This document shows, piece by piece, positions 7,397-64,000 of a stretch of DNA of 64,000 nt; positions within the stretch are counted from its first letter, which is position 1, and the number at the start of each line of letters is the position of its first letter. The DNA comes from Patescibacteria group bacterium (GTDB taxonomy: Bacteria > Patescibacteriota > Minisyncoccia > Phycocordibacterales > Phycocordibacteraceae), in NCBI GenBank assembly GCA_040384705.1, contig JAZKIU010000001.1:542053-606052 (forward strand). Reading direction: 5' to 3'. The notes beneath the pieces were generated by a model. It worked only from the letters and a program-made list of their open reading frames with translations. It searched no databases and was not told where the DNA came from. Made by a program: the position numbers and the translations under genes.

Positions 7397-7403
7397 ATTC
7401 CGT

Positions 7404-24025: not shown

Positions 24026-24088
24026 TACATGGGAGTCAGCCCACGGATATCTCCCGCATGACCGACGCTTGTGGCGTCGGTCATGTCC

Positions 24089-24352
24089 TTATCGTTTATA
24101 TACCGACGCGAGCCACCACTTCTTTATGAACGGGAGGGATTGCGTCGAAAGCACGTATCCAAGGGCTGGCACTATTGCCGACAGGAGATAGTCTTGGGCG
24201 CCGATGACATAGAGGACGATAGCGGCGCAGATATAGGTTATGGCCGCGATGGTCCCTATGCGGAATCCGCTCGTCTCCCACGCCTTATCCGCCTCCACCC
24301 GGGCGTTGCGCTCGAGCATGCGCTCCACCGTTTCCCCGATGCGCTCTTCCAT
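24089..24352 (-). CDS. Small membrane protein
   Basis: 87-aa ORF with central TM region. Confidence 0.5.
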   Translation of the reverse strand: MEERIGETVERMLERNARVEADKAWETSGFRIGTIAAITYICAAIVLYVIGAQDYLLSAIVPALGYVLSTQSLPFIKKWWLASVYKR

Positions 24353-24374
24353 ATGCGTAAAGTATAGCTCGCCC

Positions 24375-24929
24375 CTAGAGGGAGTACCTGGTGCGAAGCT
24401 TACGGCGTAGTGCTAGGTGGTTGGGGACGGTGCGCGCTACCTCCGCCCAGAAGCTACTTGAATGATTGTGCTCCTTGGTGTGGCAGAGCTCGTGCACGAT
24501 GACGTAGTCTGCGAGCGCGCTCGGGAGGAATGCTATGCGGTAGTTGAAGGAGAGGTTCCCCGTGGCCGAGCAGCTTCCCCATCGTGTCTTCTGGTTCCGT
24601 ATCGATACAGTGCCATACGAGAAGCCATAGATTGCATTGAAGTGCCTCAGCCGCTCCGTAGCGAGCGTTCGTGCGGCAGCGATAGCCTCCTTATACGCTC
24701 GAGACCCCTTTCTGGGCTTCGAGAGCGGAATGGGAGGTGTGCCGCCCGTCTGCTTCAGGAACTTTGTTCGTGCCGACTCTATCCATACCTTGCGTGCCTG
24801 GATGAACTCCTCGACCTTCTTCTGGCTTATCCGTACCGGCTTCGTCACCACGACGCGGCTGTCCGGATGGACCGTTATGCGCAGGTGGCGTGCGCGCGAG
24901 GATTCGTGTATTTCATACTCGGTACCCAT
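24375..24929 (-). CDS. YgjP-like M48/SprT-type metallopeptidase (DUF45)
   Basis: HELCH zinc-binding motif near the C-terminus, RITVHPDSRVVV beta-strand N-terminus typical of DUF45. Confidence 0.8.
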   Translation of the reverse strand: MGTEYEIHESSRARHLRITVHPDSRVVVTKPVRISQKKVEEFIQARKVWIESARTKFLKQTGGTPPIPLSKPRKGSRAYKEAIAAARTLATERLRHFNAIYGFSYGTVSIRNQKTRWGSCSATGNLSFNYRIAFLPSALADYVIVHELCHTKEHNHSSSFWAEVARTVPNHLALRRKLRTRYSL

Positions 24930-25039
24930 TTCCCTTACTATACCGGGCGTAAAAGAAAGCCGCCCGCTCCGTGCGGAGGGGCGACCGGTAGTTGGGTTAG
25001 GCGGCTTCGAGGAGCGGCGAGCCGATGAATGGTCAAACG

Positions 25040-25341
25040 ACTGTAGTTCGAGGAAACTTGCAGACCACTGTTCCTAATGTGCTATAACGACTACAGCCCC
25101 CGGAAGCAACCATGAAGAGGTGCAAATGAAGCCATGGGGAGTGAGCGATACCGACCAGGTCCCTGCTCGAGAGAGCCAAGATCTTATGCGCGCATAGCGC
25201 TCTTAGTGACAGCAGAGGACGTTGCGGCCGGTGATCAAGCGCAGCGTTGGTCACCAGTAGGATGGCACACCGCGAAATCCTGTCGGGAATATACCGCTCG
25301 CTACACTTGAAAGGTCCGTGATTGTCACGGACCTATTTTTA
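25040..25341 (+). ncRNA. Candidate structured non-coding RNA of unknown family ending in a strong intrinsic terminator
   Basis: About 300 nt GC-rich region without a credible ORF. Multiple hairpins (ATGCGCGCAT, GGTGATCAAGC..GTTGGTCACC) and terminator GGTCCGTGA-ttg-TCACGGACC + TATTTTTA at 25312-25341. Confidence 0.3.
25312..25341 (+). terminator. Intrinsic terminator
   Basis: 9-bp perfect stem followed by TATTTTTA. Confidence 0.75.
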
Positions 25342-25552
25342 TCTGCGGCAAGATTAATCTTTTCATAAATACCCGTCTTCCCCGCATCATTTCCCATTCG
25401 GAAATGCTTATAGTAGGGTTGAGCTGAAGTTCGATCCTGAACCTTGAGAGGACGTCATGAGCTACGATCAGATCGCGACCGGCAGGGTTGCCTGCTTGTC
25501 GATTGACGGCTCCGCCGCTAGAAGCATCCGCTTCGTTGCAGTCACTGAATAA

Positions 25553-25777
25553 CTACCATTTGCTATCGTATTCATATCTAACTTCCTTATTGATAAATGA
25601 ACTGAGGCCCTGTCCACACCTTGCGAGCACCTTCATACTCTCGACATTTGATCTTCCAGTTCGCAAATAAGTGTACTTGTAGCACGAATCGTCACTGAAC
25701 TTCACAATGATGTAATCCTCACCGATCTTGTACTGCCGTATGTTTGATTGCCAAGATAAATTCTCGTATTGTTCCAT
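25553..25777 (-). CDS. KTSC-domain protein
   Basis: SNIRQYKIGEDYIIVKFSDDSCYKYTY...VESMKVLARCGQGLSSFINKEVRYEY matches the KTSC consensus. Lies in the AT-rich island. Confidence 0.55.
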   Translation of the reverse strand: MEQYENLSWQSNIRQYKIGEDYIIVKFSDDSCYKYTYLRTGRSNVESMKVLARCGQGLSSFINKEVRYEYDSKW

Positions 25778-25887
25778 ACGCTGTTGTTATTGATGTATGG
25801 GAACCTTATCAAGATGTGATTATGTAAATCTCAATTTTTTATAAAGAATTTATAAAAAATTGCCATCCACTTTTTACTATCCATAGT

Positions 25888-28605: not shown

Positions 28606-29606
28606 ATATAGGCAAGTATCTTTCTATTTCCGGCTGACAGCTGGGATACGAGGTCGTAGTCTTCGAGAAGCTTCTTGAGCTCGTCGATGCGCTTAGCGAG
28701 ATCAGTACCGCCACGAACGGTGAGGAACCGTGTGACACAGGCATCAACGTCGATGTTTGCGTTTACAATAGGCATCTTACTTGCCATTAAGCCTAGGTCA
28801 GCACCTGTGATTCTAGCAAGCGCTATGAGTTCGTCGTTTGTATAGAAATCGCTCGGCCATCGATCGCTCTTATTACTATTCGCATCAGTTGAGAGCAGTG
28901 CAGCGTTCTCGTCCGTAAGTGGGTAGAGCCAACGGGACGGAAGAATATGATCAACTGCCCAGGATCTTCGATCCGCTAAGTCTAGAGACTTACCAGTCTT
29001 GAAGCACTTCCCTTCAAAACGTTCGAAAAGGGCCTTCAAATCGGGCTGCCTGTTCTCGCCTTGAAGGAGAAGTTCGGCGGTGCGCCGACGTATCGAAGAC
29101 TCATAGAGCTGCTCCTTGGTTCGCTTCGGATTAAGATCGGCATTGATAACGGCCTTACAGGCTCGGCACTCCATCTGTTTCTCCAATGGACCCCAACCAA
29201 CATGTTTACTGAAATCCCTGGCAGGCAGAATTCGGCCACAGGTCCCACACTGTTTCCAGTATGCTTCTCGCGTTTCAGTTGCTGTCCTGAAGAAAGCCAT
29301 CCAGAAACGTTGAGTTGGAAGATTGCCAGCAGCAGTTTGCTCAAGCTTCCAAGTAGTAAAGGGTAGGCCCTTCCCTTCCAAGTCCGTAAGCGGGAGAGAT
29401 GATCCTTTGGCATGCTCAAAACCGCACTTATTGCATACCCATGACTCTAATTCGTATGCTTCTGTTGGCCTAAGAAGCTGAGTGCCAAGGGGCACGGTAT
29501 TAGACGTTTGACAGCGCACACATACGAAATGTGCGAAGGCAGCGTGAATTGATACGCCCGAAACTCTGGCAATATTTGTCTTATTAGTTGTAGTTCGCCT
29601 AGCCAT
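28602..29606 (-). CDS. HNH-family endonuclease with two N-terminal zinc ribbons (candidate restriction endonuclease)
   Basis: CVRC..CNKCGFEH and CGTCGR..CRACK Cys4 ribbons. C-terminal AVDHILPSRW...NAALLSTDANSNK HNH (His-Asn-Asn/Lys) motif. Convergent with and overlapping the MTase by 4 bp. Confidence 0.75.
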   Translation of the reverse strand: MARRTTTNKTNIARVSGVSIHAAFAHFVCVRCQTSNTVPLGTQLLRPTEAYELESWVCNKCGFEHAKGSSLPLTDLEGKGLPFTTWKLEQTAAGNLPTQRFWMAFFRTATETREAYWKQCGTCGRILPARDFSKHVGWGPLEKQMECRACKAVINADLNPKRTKEQLYESSIRRRTAELLLQGENRQPDLKALFERFEGKCFKTGKSLDLADRRSWAVDHILPSRWLYPLTDENAALLSTDANSNKSDRWPSDFYTNDELIALARITGADLGLMASKMPIVNANIDVDACVTRFLTVRGGTDLAKRIDELKKLLEDYDLVSQLSAGNRKILAYI

Positions 29607-29677
29607 CTGAAAGTTGACGTTCGAAGATTACGATGCCAGAAGACAACCGTCAATTGACACCCTCTTAAGCCTTACTA

Positions 29678-31012
29678 CTAGTAGGACTTAAGTCTCCGAC
29701 TCTTCTCATGCGTCCGGATCTTCTCAAGCGCCTTCGCCTCAATCTGACGGATACGCTCACGAGTCACCCCAAACTCCTTCCCCACCTCTTCAAGCGTGTG
29801 ATACACACCATCAAGCAGCCCATGGCGCATCTCAAGGATCTTGCGCTCCTTCGGGCTTAGGTCCTCAAGGATGTCACGAACCTGTTCACCGAGAATACGC
29901 TCGGAGGATTCCTGTACGGGTGATGGAATCTTATCGTCAGCGATGAAGTCGCCGAGCGTAGAGTTCTGGTCGTCGTCGGAACCGATAGGGTTCTCGAGCG
30001 AGAGGGTGTCCTGGTTTATCTTCTCTATTTGGTAGATCTTCTCCACCTCGACGCCCATCTCTATCGCTATTTCCTCGGGCTGTGGGTCACGGCCAAGCGC
30101 CTGCGCGAGGCGGCGCGATACCTGCTTGTACTTCGCGATCGTCTCCACCATGTGGACCGGGATGCGGATAGTGCGGGACTGGTCGGCAAGCGCACGGGTG
30201 ATGGCCTGACGGATCCACCAGGTCGCATACGTCGAGAACTTGAAACCCTTATGGAAGTCGAACTTATCCACGGCCTTGAAGAGACCGAGGTTACCCTCCT
30301 GGATGAGGTCGAGAAGCGTGAGGTCCGGCGAGCGGCCTACGTACTTCTTCGCGATAGAGACCACGAGGCGGAGGTTCGAACGCGCAAGGATGTTGCGTGC
30401 CTCGTCCTCGCCGTCCTCGATGCGCTTGGCGAGCTCACGCTCTTCGGACGCGGTGAGGAGCGGGTACTGCCCTATCTCACGGAGGTATATCTGGATGGAG
30501 TCGTAGCTCGATGACTCGCGGCCCTTGATGTTACGGGTCGCAAGGTACTGGTCGGTCGTGTCCTCGAGCATGCCGCCTTCGAGGATATCGATGCCGTGGG
30601 CGGTGAACCGCTCATAGAGCTCGTCGAGGAACATGATGTCGTCCTCGATGTGCGGGAACTCCTTGAGGATCTCGGAGTACGTGATGTATCCGCGCTCCTT
30701 GCCCTTCACGATGAGGCGCTCTGCCTTGTCGCCCTTCTCCGCTGCTGCCTTCGCTTTGACGCCAGTGACGGCCGCGCGGACGACGCCCATAGCGCGGACG
30801 TTCTTCGCCGCCTTCTTCGCAGGGGTTCTCTTGGCAGCCTTCTTGACCACCTTCTTAGGCGTTTTCTTTACTGCCTTCTTCACGGCCTTTTTGGTGGGTT
30901 TCTTTGTGGTTGCCATTTTTTTGGATGCGGACTTGGAGGGCGTCTTCTTCGCGCTCTTCTTCACAGCTTTCGTTGCCGCCTTCTTCTTGGCGGGTTTCTT
31001 AGATGAAGCCAT
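29678..31012 (-). CDS. rpoD: RNA polymerase sigma-70 factor RpoD with histone H1-like Lys/Ala-rich N-terminal tail
   Basis: Regions 1.2-4 conserved ([39 protein letters not shown]; [21 protein letters not shown]). First about 85 aa are KKxAKK repeats. Confidence 0.9.
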
Positions 31013-52315: not shown

Positions 52316-52398
52316 AGAGTGAAGTGAACCACAAAATGTATAAAAGAAAAGCCGCGGCAGGTGGAGCTGCTGCGGCTTGGAGTCTGGTCGGTTCGCCA

Positions 52399-53058
52399 TT
52401 AGGGCCGGGTAAGGCCATTCATGCCCTCGTGGGTATCAGGAGGGACGATGATGAGGCCCTTCTCGTACAGGCGATGGTACTGGGAAGGAAGGAAGCCCTG
52501 GTCCGCCATGATCCGATGGAATTCGTCCACGCTGACGTATTTAGGCACTTCGCCTTCGTTCTCGTGATGCTCGCTATTGAGCAGCGACAGGACATTCTCC
52601 TCGACATCGACCGAGACGAGCACGTTCCAGAATCTTCCGCGCCAGACAGCGCCCTCGTACTGGTAGTGATGCGTCTCCGGCGAGAGCGCGAGGCCGGTCT
52701 CGCCATAGATTTCACGGACCCCGGTCGTGAGCACCGTTTCATCGTCGTGCTTCTTGCCGCCCGGCATCTTGTAGTACCAGGGCTGGCTCTTGCAGTAGTC
52801 GATGACGAACACGTATCCGAGGGGGATACGCTTCGGGCGTACGGCTTTCGCAGCAGCCTCCTCTTCGGTCAGCTCGCGACCGATCGGATCGACCGAGAGC
52901 GCTCCGTTCGGGAAGACCCTGATGAACGCGATGACCGACCACGTATCGTCGGGCCGACCGTTGTCGGCGATGAACCGATTCATGATCTGCTCGTCGATAG
53001 CGGATGGGATGCGAACCTCGCACCCATTGAGGTCGAGGGCCGAGAATCTGAGTGTCAA
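52399..53058 (-). CDS. NUDIX hydrolase
   Basis: Nudix box GGKKHDDETVLTTGVREIYGETG. Confidence 0.8.
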   Translation of the reverse strand: MTLRFSALDLNGCEVRIPSAIDEQIMNRFIADNGRPDDTWSVIAFIRVFPNGALSVDPIGRELTEEEAAAKAVRPKRIPLGYVFVIDYCKSQPWYYKMPGGKKHDDETVLTTGVREIYGETGLALSPETHHYQYEGAVWRGRFWNVLVSVDVEENVLSLLNSEHHENEGEVPKYVSVDEFHRIMADQGFLPSQYHRLYEKGLIIVPPDTHEGMNGLTRP

Positions 53059-53157
53059 AACGCACCTCCTCGCAGCTGTGCTGCGTTATTTCGAAGGAGG
53101 CGCACTACGCACCTCTGGCCGCATTATATATACGAGTACGGAAATGTCAATCTCTCC

Positions 53158-54060
53158 CTACGACGTCCTATCCAAGAGCTTCTGCACCGCTGCGGTCACT
53201 ATCGGCAGCATATCGTCATAGAAATTGAGGTCGAGGATGTCCTGGAGGCGGAACCACTTCGTATCATCGAGCCCGCCCTTCCCGGCCTCGAGCTTGAGCG
53301 GGACGTATTCGGAGCGCGCGAGGAAATAGATGACATGCTTCCGGAACTTCCCCTTCTCCGGGTGCGAGGCGACGTACTCGTTCTCTCCCACCTGCTCCTC
53401 GATGACGATATCGACGCCCATCTCCTCCTTTATCTCCCGGATGGTGCCTTCCTCCGCGTTCTCCCCTTCCTCGAGCTTCCCCTTCGAGAGCGTCCAATGG
53501 CCGAACACGTCGTGCACGAGCGCGAGATAGTACTGGCCCTCGTGCTTGGCATACACGACCGCGCCGCCGAGCCGCTCGACACGCATGTCCTCGTACCGCA
53601 TCTTCGACTTATCCTTCTTACCGGTCTCTTCCTTGCCGGGTTCGCCCAGCTCCTTATACACGGCACCGAGCACGCCGTTCACGAAGCGTCCCGAGGAGTC
53701 CCCACCGAACACTTTCGCGAGCTCGATAGCCTCGTTGATAGCGACCTTGGCCGGGACCTGCGCGCGGTCCGCGAACAGAAGCTCGAACAGGCCTATGCGC
53801 AGGATATTGCGGTCGACTGGCGCAATGCGGTCGAGCGGCCAATCAGGCGCTGCCTTCGTTATGACGAGGTCGAGATCCTCTTTCTTCGCGAGCACTCCCT
53901 TCAAAAGGGTTTCCATGAATGGCTTATCGGTATCATCCCCGCCGAATTCCTCGACGTTCCGCAGGAGCATTACATCCGCTTCGGAAACATCGGCACCCGT
54001 AGTGTCCCACTCGAAGAGCGTTTGTAGGACGACGGAACGTGCGAGATGTCGGTTAGCCAT
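53158..54060 (-). CDS. nusB: NusB-like antitermination domain fused to a C-terminal NUDIX hydrolase domain
   Basis: N-terminus ARSVVLQTLFEWD...DRNILRIGLFELLF...AINEAIELAKVFGGDSSGRFVNGVLGAV is NusB. C-terminus has Nudix box GKLEEGENAEEGTIREIKEEMGV. Confidence 0.8.
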   Translation of the reverse strand: MANRHLARSVVLQTLFEWDTTGADVSEADVMLLRNVEEFGGDDTDKPFMETLLKGVLAKKEDLDLVITKAAPDWPLDRIAPVDRNILRIGLFELLFADRAQVPAKVAINEAIELAKVFGGDSSGRFVNGVLGAVYKELGEPGKEETGKKDKSKMRYEDMRVERLGGAVVYAKHEGQYYLALVHDVFGHWTLSKGKLEEGENAEEGTIREIKEEMGVDIVIEEQVGENEYVASHPEKGKFRKHVIYFLARSEYVPLKLEAGKGGLDDTKWFRLQDILDLNFYDDMLPIVTAAVQKLLDRTS

Positions 54061-55573: not shown

Positions 55574-55615
55574 CGATGAATCATAGCAGTACTGAAATTT
55601 GCTATTGTGTACCCA

Positions 55616-58600
55616 ATGGCCGGCCGCTTCATCCATCTCCACACACATAGCCACTATTCCTTCCTCCAGGCTCTCCCGAAGGTGCCGGAACTCGTCAAAG
55701 CAGCCAAGGCAGCGGGCATGGACGCGCTCGGCATCACGGACGCCGGCAATATGCACGGCACCATCGAGTTCTATAAAGCTGCGGAGAAAGCGGGCATCAA
55801 TCCGATAATCGGGGTGGATGCGTATCTCGCGCCCGGGTCACGCAAGGATGTGGGAGCAACGGAGATAGGAGGTCGCACACGTCTCGTGCTCCTTGCGGAG
55901 AACAATGCGGGGTACCAGAACCTCATGGCGCTCATCACGAAGTCGTTCACCGAGGGATATAGCGAGCGGCCGCACATGGACCGCGAGATATTGCGCGAGC
56001 ACCATGATGGGCTCATCGCGCTCATCCCCTCGTTCGCGGGTACGGTGGCGCAATATCTGAAGCATGGAGATAAGGACGGGGCGGCGGCGGCACTCGCGGA
56101 ATACGTCAGCATATTCGGCGAAGGTAATGTGTTCCTCGAGATAACGCATCACCCGAAGGCCGACGGCCACATGAAGCGCATGGAAGATATCATCGCGCTA
56201 TCGAAGAGCTCAGGAGTCCCGCTCGTCGCCCAGCATGACGTCTACTACCTCAAGCCCGCCGACAGCGAAGCGACCGAGGTCATGCGCCGCATCGCGCACG
56301 GCACGAGCAGCAAGAACGAGGAGGAGGACTTCTCCTTCGTGAGCGAGGAGCAGATGCTGAAATGGTTCCCCGAGCACAAGGATGCGGTGCTGCGCTCGGG
56401 CGAGATAGCGGATAGGTGCAAAGTGGAGCTCAAGCTCGGGAGCTGGAACTTCCCCGCGGTCGATGTCGAGCCCGGCAAGACGCATGCGGAGATGCTCCGT
56501 GAGCGCACGTACGCAGGACTCTCTGGGCGCGGCATGGAGCGCTCCGAGGAAGCTGAGAAGCGCATCGAATATGAGCTTGATGTCATCATCGGCAAAGGCT
56601 TCGCTCCGTACTTCCTCGCGGTGTCGGACCTGCTCGCGTACGCACGCGCGAACGGCATCCTCACCACGACTCGAGGGTCTGCCGCAGGCTCGCTCGTCTC
56701 GTACCTCACGGGCATCACGAACGTGGACCCGCTCGAGTACAAGCTTCCCTTCGAGCGCTTCTTGAACCCGGAACGCCCGAAGGCGCCGGATATCGACATG
56801 GACTTCGCCGACGATAGGCGCGACGACATGATCGCGTATGCGAAGGCGAAGTACGGGGAGGATAGGGTGGCGCAGATAGGAACGTTCGGAACCATGATGG
56901 CGAGGGCTGCGGTGCGAGACGTGTCGCGCGCCTTGGGCCACGCATACCGCACCGGCGACCGCATAGCGAAATTGATACCGCTCGGCTCCCAAGGCTTCCC
57001 GATGACGATAACCCGCGCGCTCGAGCTCGAGCCGGAACTCAAGACCCTATATAACGAGGACGACGATACGAGAGAGATAATCGACCTCGCGAAGCGCATC
57101 GAGGGCTGCGTGCGCCATACGGGAGTGCACGCGGCGGGCGTGGTCATTTCGCCAACCCCGCTCACCGAATGGACGCCGCTCCAGGTGGACCCTAAGACCG
57201 GGAAGCTGATAACGCAGTACGACATGCATGCGGTCGAGGATGCTGGGCTCCTCAAGTTCGACTTCCTCGGCATCAAGAACCTCGCCATCCTCTCGGATGC
57301 GGTCGAGCGCGTGCGGGAGACCAAGGGCATTTACATAGACATCGAGAACGTTCCCATAAATGACAGCAAGACGTTTGCCATGCTCGCCCGCGGCGAGACG
57401 GAAGGCACGTTCCAGCTGAACGGTTCGGGAATGACCCGGTACCTCAAGGAGCTCCAGCCCACGAGCATCCACGACATCAACGCTATGGTGGCGCTCTACC
57501 GCCCAGGCCCGATGGAAACCATCCCGCAGTACATCGAGCGCAAGAAGAACCCGAAGCTCGTCCGCTATATGGACGAGCGCATGAAGGACTATCTCGATGC
57601 TTCGTACGGGCTCCTCGTGTACCAGGACGACGTGCTCCTGACCGCTATCACCCTCGGCGGGTACTCGTGGCTCGAGGCCGATACGCTCCGAAAGGCCATG
57701 GGTAAGAAGATCCCGGCGGAGATGGAAGCGCAGAAGGAGAAGCTCCTTAACGGCTTTATGGAATACGGGAAGCTTTCGAAAGAGAAAGCGGAGACTATCT
57801 GGAAGCTCATCGAGCCGTTCGCCGCCTACGGGTTCAACAAGGCGCATGCCGCCTGCTACGGGAAGGTCGCGTACCAGACCGCCTATATGAAGGCGAACTA
57901 TCCGGTCGAGTACATGGCGGCACTCCTTACCGCTGACGCAGGCGACACCGAAGCCATCGCCATCCTCGCCGCCGAGTGCGAACGCTTGAACATTCCCCTT
58001 CTCCCGCCTGATGTGAACGAGAGCGGTGCGGACTTCACGGTCGCTGGAGAGAACAAGGACACGGTCCGTTTCGGGCTTACCTCTATCAAGAACTTCGGTG
58101 AGGGCATTTCCCAAGCGCTCATTAAAGAAAGGAAAGAGAACGGCACCTTCAAGGATCTTTCTGATTTCCTTTCGCGCGTCGGTACGAAGAACCTGAATCG
58201 CAAGTCGCTCGAGTGCCTCATCAAGACCGGGGCGTTGGATCGCTTCGGTGAGCGCGGCCATCTGCTCACCCACATCGAGAAGCTGCTTACCTTCCATCGG
58301 GATGCGACTGCCGAAGCGCCCCAGGATTCCCTCTTCGGCGCGTCGTTCGGTACGCCCGTTCTCACGCTTCCGCCTCCATCAGGCGAGACGTCCCTTTCCG
58401 AGAAACTGCTTTGGGAGAAAGATTTGCTCGGTATCTATGTGTCGGGCCATCCGCTCGATGCGCATACCGCGACCATGACGAAAGCAGGGCTCACCATCGG
58501 CCAACTGCTTGAGGAGCCACAGCCAGGACGGCTCGTAATCCTTCCGGTGCTCGTACAGGAAGTCCGCACCGTGCTCACTAAGACCGGAGAGAAGATGGCG

Positions 58601-58771
58601 TTCCTGCGCTTCGAGGATAAGTCGGCATCGATAGAGGCAGTGGCGTTCCCGAAGCTGTACAAGGAACATGGGCATCTCATTGCTGCGGGTAACTGCCTCC
58701 TCATCAAGGGAACGGTATCGAACAGGAACGGGGAGACGAGCATCGCGATAGATAACCTGAAGGCGCTGTGA
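55616..58771 (+). CDS. dnaE: DNA polymerase III alpha subunit (compact)
   Basis: N-terminal PHP domain (HLHTHSHYS), polymerase core and OB-fold regions collinear with DnaE. ATG 55616; GTG 55607 also possible. Confidence 0.9.
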   Translation: MAGRFIHLHTHSHYSFLQALPKVPELVKAAKAAGMDALGITDAGNMHGTIEFYKAAEKAGINPIIGVDAYLAPGSRKDVGATEIGGRTRLVLLAENNAGYQNLMALITKSFTEGYSERPHMDREILREHHDGLIALIPSFAGTVAQYLKHGDKDGAAAALAEYVSIFGEGNVFLEITHHPKADGHMKRMEDIIALSKSSGVPLVAQHDVYYLKPADSEATEVMRRIAHGTSSKNEEEDFSFVSEEQMLKWFPEHKDAVLRSGEIADRCKVELKLGSWNFPAVDVEPGKTHAEMLRERTYAGLSGRGMERSEEAEKRIEYELDVIIGKGFAPYFLAVSDLLAYARANGILTTTRGSAAGSLVSYLTGITNVDPLEYKLPFERFLNPERPKAPDIDMDFADDRRDDMIAYAKAKYGEDRVAQIGTFGTMMARAAVRDVSRALGHAYRTGDRIAKLIPLGSQGFPMTITRALELEPELKTLYNEDDDTREIIDLAKRIEGCVRHTGVHAAGVVISPTPLTEWTPLQVDPKTGKLITQYDMHAVEDAGLLKFDFLGIKNLAILSDAVERVRETKGIYIDIENVPINDSKTFAMLARGETEGTFQLNGSGMTRYLKELQPTSIHDINAMVALYRPGPMETIPQYIERKKNPKLVRYMDERMKDYLDASYGLLVYQDDVLLTAITLGGYSWLEADTLRKAMGKKIPAEMEAQKEKLLNGFMEYGKLSKEKAETIWKLIEPFAAYGFNKAHAACYGKVAYQTAYMKANYPVEYMAALLTADAGDTEAIAILAAECERLNIPLLPPDVNESGADFTVAGENKDTVRFGLTSIKNFGEGISQALIKERKENGTFKDLSDFLSRVGTKNLNRKSLECLIKTGALDRFGERGHLLTHIEKLLTFHRDATAEAPQDSLFGASFGTPVLTLPPPSGETSLSEKLLWEKDLLGIYVSGHPLDAHTATMTKAGLTIGQLLEEPQPGRLVILPVLVQEVRTVLTKTGEKMAFLRFEDKSASIEAVAFPKLYKEHGHLIAAGNCLLIKGTVSNRNGETSIAIDNLKAL

Positions 58772-58824: not shown

Positions 58825-59037
58825 ATGAGTCTCAAGCCTCACAGACCGGCAAGCAGGATCGGGTCGATGGGCAACCCATCGACCTCCGGGCGCGCCTCCC
58901 AACCGACACATTCGGGAGACGACGATTCGGAGTTCCAGCTCGGCTACCCGCTTCACGGCGGCAGCTACGGCGCGAAGGACGACCTGGACGCCGCTCCCAT
59001 GCATGGAAGCGGGTACGGATCTCCTGGCCAGTTCTAG
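58825..59037 (+). CDS. Hypothetical small Gly/Ser-rich protein
   Basis: ORF with GGCGAGGAG RBS; low complexity. Confidence 0.3.
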   Translation: MSLKPHRPASRIGSMGNPSTSGRASQPTHSGDDDSEFQLGYPLHGGSYGAKDDLDAAPMHGSGYGSPGQF

Positions 59038-59101
59038 CGTGCGTACGCGGCGACCTCCTCTGGGGGCCGCCGCAAACGTTTATATGCTATCCTCATTTTC
59101 A

Positions 59102-60847
59102 ATGGCATCCCTCGAAGAAAAGCGCCACACGCTGGCCCACTTGCTCGCAGCAAGCGTCCTTGAACGGTATCCGCACGCCAAAGCAACCATTGGTCCTGCG
59201 ATAGACACCGGTTTCTATTACGACTTCGACTTCGCGGGCGGGAAGGCTCCCGGCGAAGCGGAGCTTGCCGAGCTCCAGTCCTCGATGGAGGAACTCCTTC
59301 CCTCCTGGACCGACATGTCGGGAACGGAGGTCTCGGAAGCCGATGCGCGCGACCGCTTCAAGGGCAATCAATACAAGCTCGAGATACTCGATGGCATTAC
59401 CGCTAGCGGCGACACCATCACGCTCTATACCGCAGGCAACTTCACCGACCTGTGCCGCGGCGGGCACTGCGACCATCCGGCGCACGAGATAAAAGCAGGC
59501 ACGTTCGAACTTGAACGTATTGCGGGCGCATACTGGCGCGGGGACGAGAAGAACCCGATGCTCACCCGCATCTATGGTCTCGCGTTTGATACGAAAGAAG
59601 AGCTCGAAGCATATAAGGAGCAGCGCGAGGAGGCGAAGAAGCGCGATCATAAGAAGCTTGGGAAGGAGCTCGACCTCTTCGTGTTCTCGGAACTCGTGGG
59701 TCCAGGACTTCCCCTTTGGACGCCGAAGGGTACGCTCGTACGCAACCTGCTCGATGATTTCGTATGGAGCCTCCGTGCGAGCGAGGGATACGAGAAAGTC
59801 GAAATCCCCCACATCACGAAGAAGGATTTGTATGAAGTATCCGGGCACTGGGACAAGTTCAAGGACGAGCTCTTCCGCATAACCACGCGCGAGGACCACG
59901 AGTTCGCGATGAAGCCGATGAATTGCCCGCACCACACGCAGATATACGCGCGTAAGCAGTGGAGCTACCGCGAGCTGCCCCAGCGCTATTCCAATACGAC
60001 CGCCTGCTACCGGGACGAGCAGTCCGGCGAGCTCTCCGGGCTCTCCCGCGTCCGTGCTTTCTCCCAGGACGATGCGCACGTATTCTGCCGCACGCAGGAC
60101 GTCAAAGCGGAGTTCCTCAAGGTCTGGGACATCATCCATGCCTTCTACCCTGCCTTCGGGTTCGAGCTCAAGGTACGGCTCTCGACCCACGATCCCGAGC
60201 ACCCTGAGAACTATCTGGGCGACGCTACGGTATGGGAGAAGTCCGAAGCGATGCTGAGGGAAATAGTTGAGGAGAAGGGCGTCGAGGCGGAAGCGGGCGT
60301 GGGCGAGGCCGCTTTCTACGGACCGAAGCTCGATTTCATGGCGCATGACTCCATCGGGCGCCGGTGGCAGGTCGCGACCATCCAGCTCGACATGAACCAG
60401 CCGGAGCGCTTCGACCTGTTCTGCATAAACGAGCAGGGCGAGAAGGAACGGATCGTGATGATACACGCCGCTATCATGGGCTCCATCGAGCGCTTCCTTT
60501 CGGTGCTCATCGAACACACTGCCGGCAACTTCCCCGTCTGGCTCTCCCCCGTCCAGGCACGCGTCCTCCCTATCTCAGGCGACAAGCATGGCGCGTACGC
60601 CGCTGAAGTAGTGAAAGCCCTTAAGGAGGCGGGCATCCGCGCCGATGTCGATGATGCGAACGAATCCCTCGGCAAGAAGATACGCAACGCGAAGGGCGAG
60701 AAGATCCCCTACATGCTCGTCGTGGGCGATGCAGAAATGGAGGCAGGTACCCTATCGGTAGAAAGCCGTGACGAAGGAAAGCTCGATGCGATGAAGACGG
60801 AGGATTTCACAAAGCGGGCGCAAGAAGAGATTCGTGCTCGCGCATAG
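59102..60847 (+). CDS. thrS: Threonyl-tRNA synthetase lacking the N-terminal TGS domain
   Basis: Begins at the editing (second additional) domain (HLLAASVLERYPHAKATIGPAIDTGFYYDFD, cf. E. coli [33 protein letters not shown]). Class II motifs and anticodon-binding domain present. Confidence 0.9.
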   Translation: MASLEEKRHTLAHLLAASVLERYPHAKATIGPAIDTGFYYDFDFAGGKAPGEAELAELQSSMEELLPSWTDMSGTEVSEADARDRFKGNQYKLEILDGITASGDTITLYTAGNFTDLCRGGHCDHPAHEIKAGTFELERIAGAYWRGDEKNPMLTRIYGLAFDTKEELEAYKEQREEAKKRDHKKLGKELDLFVFSELVGPGLPLWTPKGTLVRNLLDDFVWSLRASEGYEKVEIPHITKKDLYEVSGHWDKFKDELFRITTREDHEFAMKPMNCPHHTQIYARKQWSYRELPQRYSNTTACYRDEQSGELSGLSRVRAFSQDDAHVFCRTQDVKAEFLKVWDIIHAFYPAFGFELKVRLSTHDPEHPENYLGDATVWEKSEAMLREIVEEKGVEAEAGVGEAAFYGPKLDFMAHDSIGRRWQVATIQLDMNQPERFDLFCINEQGEKERIVMIHAAIMGSIERFLSVLIEHTAGNFPVWLSPVQARVLPISGDKHGAYAAEVVKALKEAGIRADVDDANESLGKKIRNAKGEKIPYMLVVGDAEMEAGTLSVESRDEGKLDAMKTEDFTKRAQEEIRARA

Positions 60848-60910: not shown

Positions 60911-61099
60911 TCAGGGCTGGAAAGACAGGTCTCCTTGTTTTGCCGCTTCCCGTTCGGCTTCCCAGACAGGGCGCTGCTGCGCGATGTCATACTCGAACCA
61001 AGCTCCGTACAGCGGCAGTCCCGCAACCCAAACCAAGGCGGCGATGATCCACAGGATATGGATGTAGCGCTCGGGAACTTCTTGTGCGTAGTTTTTCAC
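60911..61099 (-). CDS. Small membrane peptide 3 (62 aa, GTG start)
   Basis: GGGAGGG SD 4 nt before GTG; one TM helix (IHILWIIAALVWVAGLPLYGAWF). Third of three tandem peptides. Confidence 0.4.
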   Translation of the reverse strand: MKNYAQEVPERYIHILWIIAALVWVAGLPLYGAWFEYDIAQQRPVWEAEREAAKQGDLSFQP

Positions 61100-61110
61100 G
61101 ATACCCTCCC

Positions 61111-61287
61111 CTAGCGCTTGGCGGGATAGGAAGTGAATTCGACGAGCTGCTCGTTGAAGTCGCTCGCCTTGCTCAGGCACATTTCCTTGATCGGTGGCAG
61201 CACAAAGGCCACAAAACCGGCCGCTCCGACCGCAAGGATGATGTAGAGGAACGCCTTAGGAACGTCCCCGTGGTCAGTCGATTGCAT
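61111..61287 (-). CDS. Small membrane peptide 2 (58 aa)
   Basis: GGGAGGAGACA SD before ATG 61287; product MQSTDHGDVPKAFLYIILAVGAAGFVAFVLPPIKEMCLSKASDFNEQLVEFTSYPAKR (hand-translated, below the ORF-track length cutoff). Confidence 0.45.
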   Translation of the reverse strand: MQSTDHGDVPKAFLYIILAVGAAGFVAFVLPPIKEMCLSKASDFNEQLVEFTSYPAKR

Positions 61288-61514: not shown

Positions 61515-63815
61515 TTAGCCGTTCACCACGCCAAGGGCGCGAGTGACTGCGAGCTTGACGCCCGTGACTCCGGTGGAGTACGTGCCATCGACCGCTGCAG
61601 AGAGCTGTCCGACGACCTTCTCGAGGAAGGATGGGTGGCAATCGTTCGTGAGCGCTGCGATCTCAGGGTGGACCGAGGTACCGTCAACCTTCGAGCGATA
61701 TGCGTCATCGAGGGCGCAGACGGCGTGCGTGAGGAACTCCTCGGCGCTGTCGCCGCGCTTCGTGACGTTACGGATGGAGCCGAATGCTGCATCCTTGTCG
61801 CCCGAGAGAAGCGCTTTGATGAATCCTGGGATATCGTCCGCGAGCATGAAGCTTTCGTTTGAAGGCTGTGCGATTGGCGCAGCTACAGGAGCTGCTACCG
61901 GAACCGATACCTCCTGGACCACATGCGACTGCGCTACCGGAGCGTGCGTCTCACGAGCGAGCCCGGTGACGATGTCGTCGATGGTGAGCGCGCCGTCCTG
62001 TGCGAACGAGCGGAAGCCATCGTATGACGAGTACTTGCTTGCGACCGCGGCAGGCCCGTACGACGGAAGCGTCGCTACGGAATGCGCTATGTGCGCTGCG
62101 GTATCATCATGCTCGTTGATCGACTCCTTAACGCTACCGCCGAATGCCTGCACCTTGCGGAGCACGAATGGCGTTGCGCTGAAGACGAGGAAGTACGCGA
62201 GTACTGCGCTCGTGCCGATAAGGAGGAACCAGTACATCATCGTCTCGAGCGGGCTCATCTCGACGCCCGTATACGGAAGGTCGTTGAGGTACACGAACGA
62301 GAATGGCTGGTCATCGATGGTTGGGAGCGCGTCGAGCGAAGCGCGAGGCTTCTTCTTGGTGCTTCCACCGCCACCGTTATCGTCCTCGACACGAAGGGTG
62401 TCGGAACAGGTGAGGGTCTCGCCGTTGGTGGCCTTGAAGGTTCCCGTGTAGGTGTAGCGGCCTTCGCGCGGGGATACTGAGCGCGAGCCGGATGCACCCA
62501 CCGAGCCGATACCCTCATTGATGGATACCGAGGTGATGTTGGTGCCGCCCCAACGGATGGTCGCGGAATCACCCTCATCTATCTCGCTTGGCGTGACCGA
62601 GAGGAAACAGGCTGGCGCCTCAGGCCCGTCCGAGACCGTTACGGTCGCGGAACACGTTACCGTCTGCCCGTTATTCCCTTCCGCAGTAAGCGTGTAGGTG
62701 GTCGTCTGGTTCGGTGAGACGGAGCGATTGCCTGTTGCGTTGACGCCGCCGATACCCTGATTGATGAAGACGGTGCCGGTCTTGACGCGGCTCGTGCTCC
62801 AGTTGAGGGTCGCGGATCCGCCACGCGTAATGGACGATGGCGAGATAGAGAGCTCGCAGACCGGAGGCTCGGGCTGGTTCGGTGGCACGACCGTGATGGT
62901 CGCGGTACACGTCACCTGGCCGCCGTTCCCTACCGCGGTGAGCGTATAGGTGGTGGTCACGCTCGGCGAAACGATACGGTTACCGTTGAGCTCTACGCCA
63001 TTGATACCCTGGTTGATGGTCACCGTGTGCGCCCGGTTCGTGGTCCACGAGAGGTTCGAGGAACCTCCCTGGTTTATCGAGGTCGGGTTCGCAGTCAACG
63101 TACAGACCGGAGCTACTTCCTGCGGGATGCTGGTGACCGTTACGGTCGCATGGCAGTTCACGGTCTTGCCGTTTCCGGTCGCCGTAAGGGTATACGTCGT
63201 GGTGACGGTCGGGAAAACCGAGAGGTCGGTATTCAGCGGAACGCTGCCGATGCCCTGGTTTAGGGATGCGGAATCTGCGTTACGCGTCGTCCAGGTGAGC
63301 TTCGAAGAGCCGCCAGGCGCTATGGAGGTCGGGGATGCGGAGAGCGTACAGACGGGGCTTGGAACCTCGACCGGCACGCAGTCGCCGTTCCCGTCCTTGG
63401 TCATGCCGCCCGGGACAGAATCCTGGTCGCCTGATAGGTTCGGACACTCATCCGGTGGCGGAGGAGGCAGAACTACGGGAGGAGGAAGGGGTGGTGGGGG
63501 CGGAGGAGGAGGCGGTGGGGGTGGTGGGGGCGGAGGAGGAGGCGGTGGGGGTGGTGGGGGCGGAGGAGGAGCTGGCGGCGCGCAGCATGGGGGACCAACT
63601 ACCTGAGCCTTGATGAGCTCGGGAGCGGTCATACCCATGAAGTGCGCGATGCCCATACCTATCACCAATACGGTAAGTACGGCAAATACACCGAGAAGTA
63701 TCGGTCGTTCTTTCGCGTAGGTCATCTGCTGATTGAAGTTCATATATTTCTGATTAGCACTTGATAAGTTCCTCGTTAATAAATCTTTCGCCCATGCCGC
63801 ATCCGCGGCGTACAA
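61515..63815 (-). CDS. Large cell-surface protein: N-terminal TM anchor, 29-residue poly-proline spacer, five tandem Cys-bounded Ig-like repeats (about 85 aa each), second TM helix, C-terminal domain of unknown function
   Basis: Repeats of form PVCTL(S/T)A(S/N)P(T/S)SI..GGSS.L.W.T..A.....NQGIG.V...G...VSP..TTTYTLTA.GN....C.ATVTV occur five times. The poly-Pro is encoded by a tandem GC repeat. Confidence 0.8.
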   Translation of the reverse strand: MYAADAAWAKDLLTRNLSSANQKYMNFNQQMTYAKERPILLGVFAVLTVLVIGMGIAHFMGMTAPELIKAQVVGPPCCAPPAPPPPPPPPPPPPPPPPPPPPPPPPPPPLPPPVVLPPPPPDECPNLSGDQDSVPGGMTKDGNGDCVPVEVPSPVCTLSASPTSIAPGGSSKLTWTTRNADSASLNQGIGSVPLNTDLSVFPTVTTTYTLTATGNGKTVNCHATVTVTSIPQEVAPVCTLTANPTSINQGGSSNLSWTTNRAHTVTINQGINGVELNGNRIVSPSVTTTYTLTAVGNGGQVTCTATITVVPPNQPEPPVCELSISPSSITRGGSATLNWSTSRVKTGTVFINQGIGGVNATGNRSVSPNQTTTYTLTAEGNNGQTVTCSATVTVSDGPEAPACFLSVTPSEIDEGDSATIRWGGTNITSVSINEGIGSVGASGSRSVSPREGRYTYTGTFKATNGETLTCSDTLRVEDDNGGGGSTKKKPRASLDALPTIDDQPFSFVYLNDLPYTGVEMSPLETMMYWFLLIGTSAVLAYFLVFSATPFVLRKVQAFGGSVKESINEHDDTAAHIAHSVATLPSYGPAAVASKYSSYDGFRSFAQDGALTIDDIVTGLARETHAPVAQSHVVQEVSVPVAAPVAAPIAQPSNESFMLADDIPGFIKALLSGDKDAAFGSIRNVTKRGDSAEEFLTHAVCALDDAYRSKVDGTSVHPEIAALTNDCHPSFLEKVVGQLSAAVDGTYSTGVTGVKLAVTRALGVVNG
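63481..63575. repeat. Tandem simple-sequence repeat, about 3 units of GGTGGTGGGGGCGGAGGAGGAGGCGGTGGG, encoding the poly-proline tract on the minus strand
   Basis: Direct tandem repetition visible in the sequence (..ggtggtgggggcggaggaggaggcggtggg x3). Confidence 0.8.
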
Positions 63816-64000
63816 AAAGAGTTGGGAGGTGAGTCGTAAGGACGACCCACCGCCGCAACCCGTTGCGATGCCCCTAGTTGGGGCAATCGCCGTTATCCGC
63901 CATCCATAGGCTGTCGGGCACCACGACGTGGTGCCTTCCCTGCCAATCCTGCGGTCGCATGTAGACGCCGCAGGTCTGGGAGCCGTCCGAAGCCTTCAGG

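What the first reader, a model, noticed from the sequence alone, without database searches (positions are those of the whole stretch)
61515..63815. Large surface protein with 29-residue poly-proline stalk, five Cys-bounded Ig-like repeats and two TM segments
The protein reads as a short cytoplasmic N-terminus, TM1, PPCCAPPAPPP...(P29)...LPPPVVLPPPPP, then five about 85-aa repeats each bracketed by Cys (probable disulfide-stabilised Ig/PKD-like domains). After that come TM2 and a 190-aa C-terminal domain. The topology suggests an extended rigid stalk displaying adhesin-like domains. The second TM and C-terminal domain suggest an unusual membrane re-entry or partner interaction.
Basis: seen in the sequence. 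Interest (0 to 1): 0.6.

Follow-up and report, generated by a model that had tools for sequence, protein, structure and literature searches.

The report
Sortase-linked surface protein with cytoplasmic tail
This is a conserved but unannotated envelope protein of tiny Paceibacteria (CPR) bacteria: a polyproline rod, four antibody-like domains and a sortase cell-wall-anchoring signal that, unusually, is followed by a conserved 214-residue domain inside the cell.

Summary
The ORF at 61515-63815 (minus strand) is real. It belongs to a large family with no Pfam or NCBIfam model, found in Patescibacteria (Paceibacterota, Parcubacteria, Kaiserbacteria). It missed the key feature. LPYTG (aa 513-517) lies about 10 residues before the second hydrophobic segment, and Arg-Lys follows that segment. 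This is a sortase sorting signal. PYTG is invariant in 66 aligned relatives. Relatives without the tail end in a classical SQ[IV]PYTG-hydrophobic-basic signal. In 37 of 38 related loci with enough upstream sequence, a sortase gene lies 0.8-1.7 kb upstream on the same strand, usually (44 of 47 loci) with one unknown Cys-rich gene ("X") between. The window ends inside X. "TM1" looks like a cleavable signal peptide (conserved small-x-Ala|Gln site) followed by a hinge-like PPCC motif. The unusual part is the tail after the sorting signal: 214 residues, conserved, probably cytoplasmic. It ends in a confidently modelled helical bundle that resembles the oligomerisation collar of clamp loaders. Best reading: a dedicated sortase substrate whose membrane remnant carries a functional cytoplasmic module. 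Cleavage is inferred, not shown. This is a new variant of a known kind.

The parts
61515..63815 (-). Whole ORF (766 codons from TTG; stop TAA at 61515-61517). The likely true CDS is 61515-63743, from ATG M25.
   Evidence: Homologues start 12-14 aa before the conserved 'RPI'. The only identical public gene call (P0001, 629 aa) starts at M138 and so lacks the signal peptide and polyPro.
63606..63743 (-). Probable Sec signal peptide (aa 25-70): n-region with K/R, a long hydrophobic core (aa 38-62), then ...LIKA70|Q71.
   Evidence: Hydropathy. 43 of 49 full-length relatives have a small-x-Ala followed by Q/H/D/E within 20 aa of the hydrophobic core. Cleavage is inferred, not shown.
63453..63596 (-). 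Hinge-like 'GPPCC' motif plus polyproline tract (aa 74-121; 27 consecutive Pro at aa 83-109).
   Evidence: A perfect 30-nt tandem repeat x2.8 lies at 63488-63571. Among 49 relatives, 30 have a vicinal CC, 24 have PPCC, 24 have Pro runs >= 10 and 12 have runs >= 20.
63366..63452 (-). Short Cys loop (aa 122-150; C124...C146), not related to the Ig repeats.
63132..63359 (-). Ig-like repeat 1 (aa 153-228; C156/C221).
   Evidence: alignment. AF2 pLDDT 97, 7-stranded sandwich. Foldseek hits to Ig tandems.
62886..63113 (-). Ig-like repeat 2 (aa 235-310; C238/C303).
62631..62867 (-). Ig-like repeat 3 (aa 317-395; C320/C388).
   Evidence: 57-62% identical to repeats 1 and 2.
62385..62618 (-). Ig-like repeat 4 (aa 400-477; C403/C470), the most divergent repeat. 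Its counterpart is conserved as the last repeat in relatives.
62238..62303 (-). Extended sorting box FSFVYLNDLPYTGVEMSPLETM (aa 505-526). The LPYTG pentapeptide is at 62265-62279 (aa 513-517).
   Evidence: P514, Y515, T516 and G517 are invariant in 66 sequences. [LIVM]PYTG occurs in nearly all of the top 120 hits and in the distant representatives.
62160..62237 (-). Hydrophobic stop-transfer segment of the sorting signal ('TM2', aa 527-552), followed by R554-K555.
   Evidence: AF2 helix over aa 522-568, pLDDT about 90 or higher across the membrane segment and falling to about 70 at its cytoplasmic end.
61950..62036 (-). Conserved linear motif in the cytoplasmic linker (aa 594-622, KYSSYDGFRSFAQDGALTIDDIVTGLARE).
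   Evidence: F601, D614, V616 and G618 are invariant. Low pLDDT, so probably a binding motif rather than a folded domain.
61518..61835 (-). C-terminal helical bundle (aa 661-766) with a clamp-loader-collar-like fold.
   Evidence: AF2 pLDDT 95-98. Foldseek against PDB: the top hits (ranks 1-38 of those listed) are clamp-loader subunits (E. coli gamma/tau, delta-prime and delta; B. subtilis delta), then MgsA C-terminal fragments (ranks 39, 42, 46, 48); about 112 columns, rmsd 2-3 A, 15-17% identity, best E 9.5e-4. R682, D703, R707, G712, L731, E732, D743, Y746, R759 and A760 are invariant.
63878..64000 (-). Last 41 codons of the upstream gene 'X', a Cys-rich exported protein of unknown function. 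In relatives X lies between the sortase gene and this gene.
   Evidence: 67% identical to the C-terminus of X in L024, E 2e-19. The X family is present in 44 of 47 loci.

Best explanation
The gene encodes a core cell-envelope protein of a Paceibacteria (CPR/Patescibacteria) bacterium. It is most likely the dedicated substrate of a sortase encoded two genes upstream, just beyond the window end. Proposed path, all steps inferred: (1) Sec export, with signal-peptidase cleavage at A70|Q71. (2) The mature N-terminus is QVVGPPCC followed by a rigid polyproline-II rod about 15 nm long; the vicinal cysteines may form inter-chain disulfides, as in an antibody hinge. (3) Four Ig-like domains follow, each probably stapled by a disulfide between its first and last strand. 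(4) The box FVYL..LPYTG plus the hydrophobic segment plus RK holds the precursor in the membrane, and the sortase cleaves between T516 and G517. It then joins Thr516 to the cell wall or to another envelope amine. (5) Unlike any classical sortase substrate, the remnant left in the membrane is not a short peptide. It is a 250-residue protein: G517, the TM helix, a linker with a conserved motif, and a helical bundle. I infer that this cytoplasmic module oligomerises or docks the precursor before cleavage, or persists afterwards as a membrane-tethered signal or scaffold that reports or organises surface assembly. Shown here: the sequence anatomy, the folds, the family-wide conservation and the gene neighbourhood. 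Inferred: cleavage, wall linkage, disulfides, topology and the role of the tail.
For: 1. LPYTG lies 10 aa before a 26-residue hydrophobic segment that is followed by RK.
2. PYTG is invariant in 66 aligned family members. It is present in nearly all of the 120 best hits and, as SQ[IV]PYTG, in the most distant tail-bearing representatives.
3. Relatives that share the Ig repeats but lack the tail (for example P0107 and P0088) end in SQ[IV]PYTG + hydrophobic + basic residues, which is a textbook C-terminal sorting signal.
4. A bona fide sortase gene lies 0.8-1.7 kb upstream on the same strand in 37 of 38 loci with enough upstream DNA (Pfam PF04203, E 1e-21 to 1e-23; TLVTC motif). This includes L005, a relative whose tail is 95% identical.
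5. The window itself ends inside gene X, which sits between the sortase and this gene.
6. In Campbellbacteria the tail-less positional orthologue P0107, also next to thrS, again has an adjacent sortase. There the upstream context is rearranged and the sortase faces the other way.
7. The N-terminus has a conserved n-region, h-region and small-x-Ala|Gln junction.
8. The Ig fold is confirmed. 180 of 183 family repeats carry at least 2 Cys.
9. CPR genomes commonly encode sortase, an MdbA-like oxidoreductase and VKOR (PMC6744442).
10. The tail is conserved over 384 representative clusters and sits at the C-terminus in the listed matches. It contains a confidently folded bundle resembling oligomerisation collars.
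11. There is precedent that the membrane remnant of a sortase substrate can signal (S. gordonii C-peptide, as cited in PMC11502775).
Against: 1. No experiment shows cleavage.
2. In the 80 closest loci the whole block is collinear: gyrB 37/38, thrS 55/55, dnaE 54/55. Adjacency to the sortase is therefore no better conserved than adjacency to housekeeping genes, and could partly be inherited gene order.
3. One related locus (P0036, Kaiserbacteria) has VPYTG + TM + a different tail and no sortase within 8 kb.
4. A defining property of classical sorting signals, position at the extreme C-terminus, is not met.
5. The NCBIfam scan of the protein (E <= 1) returned only a GltJ hit, so no LPXTG-anchor model matched.
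6. Residues on both sides of PYTG are more conserved than in ordinary sorting signals (VYLSQ upstream, LDLGPxGT downstream). That would also fit a structural juxtamembrane element.
7. The hydrophobic core of the putative signal peptide is long (about 25 aa), as in signal anchors.
8. The sortase fits none of the class-specific NCBIfam models listed (B-F, GN); best is class E at 58.5 bits against a cut-off of 160. Its specificity is therefore unknown.
9. The collar-fold match is borderline in E-value (about 1e-3) and comes from a small helical bundle.
Confidence: 0.62

Rival explanations
1. It is an uncleaved membrane receptor or scaffold. After signal-peptide removal it is a type I membrane protein with an Ig-domain ectodomain, one TM helix and a cytoplasmic oligomerising domain, like a eukaryotic Ig-superfamily receptor. 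The PYTG box would be a structural juxtamembrane element, and the neighbouring sortase would serve other substrates.
For: The flanks of PYTG are unusually conserved on both sides. The large conserved cytoplasmic tail makes sense for a protein that stays intact. The whole region is collinear with housekeeping genes, so sortase adjacency may be inherited. The P0036 locus has no nearby sortase.
Against: The same SQ[IV]PYTG box serves as a classical terminal sorting signal in tail-less relatives. The P-x-T-G core is invariant. The sortase pairing survives rearrangement in Campbellbacteria. No other candidate sortase substrate is seen in the locus: X and the CARDB protein lack such a motif.
Confidence: 0.2
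2. It is a membrane-to-wall tether. The N-terminal hydrophobic segment is an uncleaved signal anchor, and sortase links the C-terminal Thr to peptidoglycan. One molecule would then bridge membrane and wall, with the polyproline rod as a length-setting spacer, functionally like Braun's lipoprotein.
For: The first hydrophobic core is long, about 25 residues. The polyPro tract directly follows it and its length varies between relatives from 2 to 35 Pro. The gene is single-copy in a core-genome position.
Against: The conserved small-x-Ala|Gln junction 8-12 residues after the hydrophobic core is what a signal-peptidase site looks like. About half of the relatives have little or no polyPro, so a spacer role cannot be universal.
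Confidence: 0.1
3. It is a subunit of a sortase-polymerised fibre (pilus-like). The sortase would join Thr516 of one subunit to a lysine of the next, or to gene X as a base or tip partner, as in Gram-positive pilus islands.
For: The gene order sortase - X - substrate on one strand resembles a pilus islet. The domains are tandem Ig-like domains, as in pilins. The nearest solved sortases by sequence include class C pilus sortases.
Against: No pilin-type family was detected: Pfam hits are only sub-threshold (one distant homologue, P0054, carries a precomputed SpaA-type hit). No isopeptide or pilin motif (YPKN-like) was searched for. X has no sorting signal. The sortase scores higher with the class E (housekeeping) model than with class C. 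Repeat number varies from 0 to 15, which is unlike pilin shafts.
Confidence: 0.06
4. It is an assembly or annotation artefact. The polyPro tract would be a collapsed or expanded simple repeat that joins two unrelated ORFs.
For: A Logan contig of the same organism breaks exactly at the repeat, and the only identical public gene call starts at M138. The tract is a perfect 30-nt tandem repeat.
Against: Independent MAGs show the same continuous reading frame: signal peptide, PPCC, polyPro of 14-35 residues, then Ig repeats. This includes L005, a relative whose tail is 95% identical and which has 28 Pro.
Confidence: 0.02

Closest known systems
LPXTG-type cell-wall-anchored surface proteins of Gram-positive bacteria (substrates of housekeeping sortases, class A/E)
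   Same: N-terminal export signal, tandem Ig-like ectodomains, an LPXTG-like pentapeptide (LPYTG) followed by a hydrophobic segment and basic residues, and a sortase gene close by.
   Different: The sorting signal is internal: 214 conserved residues follow it, instead of a charged tail of about 5-10 residues. The motif is a fixed [LIVM]PYTG inside a longer conserved box. The Pro-rich tract is at the N-terminus, not in front of the anchor as in many Gram-positive wall-spanning regions (my own knowledge). The sortase fits no class-specific model. No Pfam or NCBIfam model matches.
Tail-less Patescibacteria relatives such as P0107 (Candidatus Campbellbacteria), P0088, P0067 and P0090
   Same: Same Ig-like repeats and the same SQ[IV]PYTG box. 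P0107 occupies the same genomic slot next to thrS and has an adjacent sortase.
   Different: They end within about 35-60 residues of the motif with a classical sorting signal (36-41 in P0107 and P0088, 48-49 in P0067 and P0090). The protein here has an added cytoplasmic linker and helical bundle.
Sortase 'C-peptide' signalling in Streptococcus gordonii (as described in PMC11502775, ref 53 there)
   Same: The membrane remnant left after sortase cleavage has a function of its own.
   Different: There the remnant is a peptide of about 30 residues that is sensed within the membrane by a histidine kinase. Here the remnant would be a 250-residue protein with its own folded cytoplasmic domain. No kinase link is known.
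Domain III ('collar') of bacterial clamp-loader subunits gamma/tau, delta-prime and delta, and the C-terminal oligomerisation domain of MgsA/RarA
   Same: The fold of the last 106 residues: about 112 aligned columns, rmsd 2-3 A. Those domains hold oligomers together (my own knowledge of the clamp-loader structures).
   Different: No detectable sequence similarity: 15-17% identity in the structural alignment, and no Pfam hit. There is no AAA+ module. The domain is membrane-tethered. This is a resemblance of fold only, not family membership.
Antibody hinge regions (IgG/IgA Cys-Pro-rich hinges), by analogy only
   Same: Vicinal or closely spaced Cys embedded in a Pro-rich rigid segment next to Ig-fold domains. 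Some relatives repeat the PPCC-Pro module several times.
   Different: No homology is implied. Inter-chain disulfides here are a hypothesis.

Membership tests
Sortase substrate with LPXTG-type cell-wall sorting signal | LPXTG-like pentapeptide | tested here: met
   LPYTG at aa 513-517. P, Y, T and G are invariant in 66 relatives.
Sortase substrate with LPXTG-type cell-wall sorting signal | Hydrophobic segment directly after the motif, followed by basic residues | tested here: met
   aa 527-552 are hydrophobic, then R554-K555. AF2 models a helix over aa 522-568.
Sortase substrate with LPXTG-type cell-wall sorting signal | The signal lies at the extreme C-terminus, with only a short charged tail after the hydrophobic segment | tested here: not met
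   214 residues follow the hydrophobic segment. Most family members have tails of 225-325 aa measured from the motif.
Sortase substrate with LPXTG-type cell-wall sorting signal | N-terminal cleavable signal peptide | tested here: inconclusive
   An n-region, an h-region and a conserved small-x-Ala|Gln junction are present. However, the h-region is long and no dedicated predictor was available.
Sortase substrate with LPXTG-type cell-wall sorting signal | A sortase encoded in the genome or nearby | tested here: met
   The sortase is not inside the window, which ends in gene X. In relatives it lies two genes upstream in 37 of 38 loci, including L005, whose tail is 95% identical.
Sortase substrate with LPXTG-type cell-wall sorting signal | Match to the curated LPXTG-anchor HMM (NCBIfam; TIGR01167 by my recollection) | tested here: not met
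   The NCBIfam scan at E <= 1 returned only a GltJ hit.
Sortase substrate with LPXTG-type cell-wall sorting signal | Cleavage between Thr and Gly and transpeptidation to the wall | not testable with these tools
   Needs biochemistry or proteomics.
Annotated bacterial Ig-like adhesin domains (Big_2, Cadherin, PKD, I-set and others) | Pfam match above the gathering threshold | tested here: not met
   Best hits for this protein: K319L-like_PKD 13 bits, Ig_ADGRF3 13 bits, I-set 10 bits, against cut-offs of 24-27 bits. Across the family, I-set matched 18 of 53 members at E <= 1.
Annotated bacterial Ig-like adhesin domains (Big_2, Cadherin, PKD, I-set and others) | Ig-like beta-sandwich fold | tested here: met
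   AF2 pLDDT 96.9. Foldseek gives 290 PDB hits at E <= 1e-3, led by Ig tandems.
Clamp-loader collar / MgsA C-terminal domain | Five-helix collar fold | tested here: met
Clamp-loader collar / MgsA C-terminal domain | Sequence homology and an AAA+ module upstream | tested here: not met
   No Pfam hit and no PDB sequence-profile hit for the tail. The upstream part is a TM helix and a linker.
Sortase classes A-F (for the neighbouring enzyme in relatives) | Score above a class-specific NCBIfam cut-off | tested here: not met
   Class E 58.5 bits against 160, class D 37.8 against 165, class C 34.3 against 160; generic sortase_fam 38.6 against 39.35. Pfam Sortase is met (81 bits against 26.6).

The most novel reading that the evidence does not exclude
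Sortase processing here yields two functional products from one precursor. One is a wall-linked, disulfide-cross-linkable Ig/polyproline surface rod. The other is a membrane-tethered 250-residue remnant whose cytoplasmic collar-like domain oligomerises. The remnant would couple surface assembly to something inside the cell, such as positioning, counting or signalling of envelope growth. This would be a built-in transmembrane reporter of sortase activity, conserved as a core gene in a large CPR lineage, and a class of sortase substrate not described before.
Probability: 0.3. Interest if true: 0.75.

Novelty: new variant of a known kind. Interest (0 to 1): 0.6.

Why it matters
CPR/Patescibacteria make up a large share of bacterial diversity, live attached to other cells, and have envelopes that are almost uncharacterised. 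This gene is a single-copy, core-genome, syntenic envelope module: a CARDB protein, a sortase, unknown gene X and this protein. It was confirmed in at least 184 matching stretches among GTDB species-representative genomes, yet no curated family covers it. The public gene call for this organism even lacks the signal peptide and the polyproline tract. If the sortase reading is right, it gives three things. First, a defined recognition motif ([LIVM]PYTG) for an unclassified sortase clade. Second, a candidate major surface structure of Paceibacteria. Third, the first example known to me of a sorting signal followed by a conserved folded cytoplasmic domain, which would extend what a sortase substrate can be. 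All three are directly testable with peptides and recombinant enzyme.

Tried and rejected
1. Pfam and NCBIfam scans of the protein found nothing above threshold. A PDB sequence-profile search found only weak Ig/PKD hits for the repeats and nothing for the tail.
2. I looked for a sortase inside the window by scanning about 49 ORFs against Pfam. There is none. The neighbours within about 20 kb are housekeeping genes or have no Pfam match.
3. Gene X has no Pfam, NCBIfam or PDB-profile match. Its function stays unknown.
5. Literature searches for LPYTG/IPYTG/VPYTG, for sortase in Parcubacteria/CPR, and for Ig-like surface proteins of Patescibacteria found no description of this family.
6. I first treated the 100% sortase adjacency as strong evidence of coupling. 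I then downgraded it, because the whole block, housekeeping genes included, is equally collinear. The rearranged Campbellbacteria locus restores part of the argument.
7. I considered that 'DIPGFIKAL' (family consensus DVPxF) resembles the FtsZ C-terminal peptide DIPAFL (from memory). I rejected it as evidence because it is the first helix of a confidently folded bundle.
8. I considered the polyPro tract to be a recent slippage artefact only. I rejected this because runs of 14-35 Pro recur in about half of the relatives.
Full report
OBSERVATION. The minus-strand ORF at 61515-63815 is real: 766 codons from a TTG. Relatives begin about 12-14 residues before the conserved 'RPI', so the likely start is ATG M25 at 63743.

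Direct reading and hydropathy give the following anatomy:
- a basic n-region and a hydrophobic core at aa 38-62;
- GPPCC, then a 48-residue tract with 39 Pro, of which 27 are consecutive (aa 83-109);
- a 23-residue Cys loop (C124-C146);
- four Cys-bracketed repeats of about 80 residues (C156/C221, C238/C303, C320/C388, C403/C470), 40-62% identical to each other;
- LPYTG at aa 513-517;
- a second hydrophobic segment at aa 527-552, followed by R554-K555;
- a 214-residue tail.

The corrections are 27 rather than 29 consecutive Pro, four rather than five repeats, and a 214-aa rather than 190-aa tail. The polyPro tract is coded by a perfect 30-nt tandem repeat x2.8. A Logan contig of the same organism breaks exactly there, and the only identical public gene call (P0001, 629 aa) starts at M138, so it lacks the export signal and the polyPro tract.

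WHAT FAMILY. Pfam and NCBIfam give nothing above threshold. A word-indexed search found more than 4,600 proteins at E <= 1e-3. The named ones are hypothetical proteins of Paceibacterota, Parcubacteria, Kaiserbacteria or Minisyncoccota, and many of the top-listed hits cover about 95% of the query. An exhaustive HMMER search with aa 491-766 alone found 384 representative clusters. In the listed matches this module lies at the C-terminus, in proteins of 94-1378 aa, the shortest being fragments. The window's other genes are housekeeping genes of a small genome: rpoB/C, dnaG, rpoD, dnaE, thrS, hisS and smc.

THE SORTING SIGNAL. In an alignment of 66 relatives, P514, Y515, T516 and G517 are invariant. 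L510, Y528, W529, L532, Y541 and P549 are also invariant. [LIVM]PYTG followed by a hydrophobic segment is present in nearly all of the 120 best hits. It also appears, as SQ[IV]PYTG[FLY], in the most distant tail-bearing representatives. Relatives that share the repeats but have no tail end in a textbook sorting signal. An example is P0107...YLSQIPYTGIPEMLISAFGYLFRFFAFGGLLYALYKVK. The motif is thus used as a classical C-terminal sortase signal in the same group of organisms.

NEIGHBOURHOOD. Three homologues on long contigs showed the order gyrB(+) | CARDB membrane protein(-) | Sortase(+) | unknown X(+) | this gene(+) | thrS(-) | dnaE(-). I then fetched 80 loci from GTDB species-representative genomes, out of 184 confirmed matching stretches. 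Of the loci with at least 5.5 kb of upstream sequence, 37 of 38 have a same-strand sortase 0.8-1.7 kb upstream. This sortase matches Pfam PF04203 (75-81 bits against a cut-off of 26.6) and carries a TLVTC motif. It reaches no class-specific NCBIfam cut-off; class E is best at 58.5 bits against 160. Gene X is 330-440 aa, has an N-terminal signal or TM segment and six conserved Cys, and matches no known family. It lies between the sortase and this gene in 44 of 47 loci.

In the window, thrS (59003-60847) and dnaE (55607-58771) are in the expected places. The last 123 nt of the window (63878-64000, minus strand) encode the C-terminus of an X protein that is 67% identical to X of L024 (E 2e-19). 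The sortase should therefore lie about 1.3 kb beyond the window end, as it does in L005, whose tail is 95% identical.

There is a caveat. In this set the whole block is collinear: gyrB 37/38, thrS 55/55 and dnaE 54/55. Adjacency alone therefore cannot separate functional coupling from inherited gene order. Three further loci bear on this:
- Two more distant members, P0114 and P0095 (33% identical), keep the same block.
- The tail-less Campbellbacteria orthologue P0107, also next to thrS, has a rearranged upstream context (rpoC-dnaG-rpoD). It still has an adjacent sortase, now divergently transcribed.
- One Kaiserbacteria locus (P0036) has VPYTG + TM + a different tail and no sortase within 8 kb.

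N-TERMINUS. I compared 49 full-length family ORFs re-derived from DNA; many public gene calls are truncated at the Pro-rich region. Their N-terminus follows a common pattern. It has a K/R-rich n-region, then a conserved hydrophobic core (RPIL.G.FAVLAV..G...AFATG..TP), and 8-12 residues later a small-x-Ala followed by Gln or another polar residue (43 of 49). This fits the -3/-1 rule of signal peptidase I. In the window the site is LIKA70|Q71. Directly after it, 30 of 49 have a vicinal CC, and 24 of these have 'PPCC'. Pro runs of at least 10 occur in 24 of 49 and of at least 20 in 12 of 49. Several relatives repeat a PPCC-Pro-rich module 2-5 times. The polyPro/CC element is therefore a family trait of variable length. 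It resembles an antibody hinge by analogy only.

MECHANISM (inferred). (1) Sec export and signal-peptide cleavage. (2) Oxidative folding of the Ig domains. CPR genomes commonly encode an MdbA-like oxidoreductase and VKOR, as well as sortase (PMC6744442). (3) Retention of the precursor by the sorting signal. (4) Sortase cleavage at T516|G517 and attachment of the ectodomain to the wall. The polyPro/CC end would then be distal and possibly disulfide-linked to neighbouring molecules. (5) A 250-residue remnant stays in the membrane, carrying a conserved cytoplasmic motif and an oligomerisation-type bundle.

The remnant is the unusual feature, because classical substrates leave only a peptide of about 30 residues. 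That peptide can itself signal, as in S. gordonii (cited in PMC11502775). I assign about 0.6 to 'dedicated sortase substrate with a functional cytoplasmic remnant'. The rivals are an uncleaved Ig-type membrane receptor (about 0.2), a membrane-to-wall tether with an uncleaved N-terminal anchor (about 0.1) and a pilus-like polymer (about 0.06).

COMPARISON AND NOVELTY. The protein works like an LPXTG surface protein but fails one defining feature of that family: the signal is not at the C-terminus. It also matches no curated model. The tail's fold resembles clamp-loader collars without sequence homology or the AAA+ context. Six searches of the held paper library found no description of this family or of [LIVM]PYTG as a CPR sorting motif. 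Verdict: a real feature, a new variant of a known kind (a sortase-dependent surface protein), and of moderate-to-high interest because of the conserved cytoplasmic module behind the sorting signal and its core-genome status in a major uncultivated lineage.

Noticed in passing
window 24000-30000: A low-GC island (GC 0.44-0.52 against about 0.59 elsewhere). It carries a 905-aa DNA methylase (25888-28605, N6_N4_Mtase) and a 334-aa ORF (28602-29606, minus strand) with a weak Cas12f1/TnpB-like TNB-domain hit. It is probably a horizontally acquired restriction-modification or transposon remnant.
   Followed up: partly
window 6242-9329: Two adjacent GH130 (beta-1,4-mannooligosaccharide phosphorylase) genes; the second is a 641-aa protein with two matched stretches. 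They sit next to a mannose-6-phosphate isomerase-like cupin (5889-6236). This is a sugar-salvage cluster in an otherwise minimal genome.
   Followed up: no
window 13310-14041: A 243-aa ORF just passes the Pfam cut-off for alternative oxidase (AOX, 23.5 bits against 22.7). It lies next to an FAD-linked oxidase (11631-13286). An AOX-like di-iron protein would be unusual in a CPR bacterium.
   Followed up: no
window 63404-63815, and L001: The only identical public gene product (P0001, 629 aa) starts at M138. The Logan contig of the same organism ends inside the polyPro repeat. In L002 and L004 the relatives' gene calls are likewise truncated, and in L004 a spurious opposite-strand ORF is called over the Pro-rich region. 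The N-terminal signal, PPCC and polyPro of this family are therefore systematically missing from public annotations.
   Followed up: yes
window 62950-63606 (+) and 61543-62451 (+): Long antisense shadow ORFs (218 and 302 aa) overlap the gene. One reads poly-Gly opposite the polyPro tract. They are artefacts of GC-rich repetitive coding sequence, not genes.
   Followed up: partly
window 60911-61180 (-): A small ORF with one TM helix lies directly downstream on the same strand; it is called as a 62-aa product in L001. Relatives also have a small single-TM ORF in this position (73 aa in L002, 51 aa in L004), but with no obvious sequence similarity.
   Followed up: partly
L002:4284-5450 (-), L004:6515-7615 (-), L005:5471-6271 (-): The divergently transcribed neighbour of the sortase is a conserved membrane-anchored CARDB-domain protein (37 of 38 loci). 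In L002 and L004 it ends in tandem Cys-containing 'DSNGRYCxYGTYYSNGRYYC' repeats. It may be another part of the same envelope module.
   Followed up: partly
L087:8001-11024 (P0036, Kaiserbacteria CG10): A positional orthologue next to thrS has VPYTG + TM but a different C-terminal tail, which ends ...NGWMVINKERLAALLTA. It has only a weak X-like ORF upstream and no sortase within 8 kb. The cytoplasmic tail therefore seems to be exchangeable in evolution.
   Followed up: partly
window aa 659-670 of the ORF (about 61806-61841): 'ADDIPGFIKALL' (family consensus DVPxF..ALL) resembles, from memory, the conserved FtsZ C-terminal peptide (DIPAFL). It is modelled as the first helix of the folded bundle, so the likeness is probably coincidental.
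   Followed up: no
window 1-64000: There is no Rfam match at gathering threshold anywhere in the 64 kb: no tRNA, rRNA or riboswitch. Several sizeable ORFs have no Pfam family, for example 52324-54027 (567 aa), 19012-19875 (287 aa) and 2031-2834 (267 aa).
   Followed up: no
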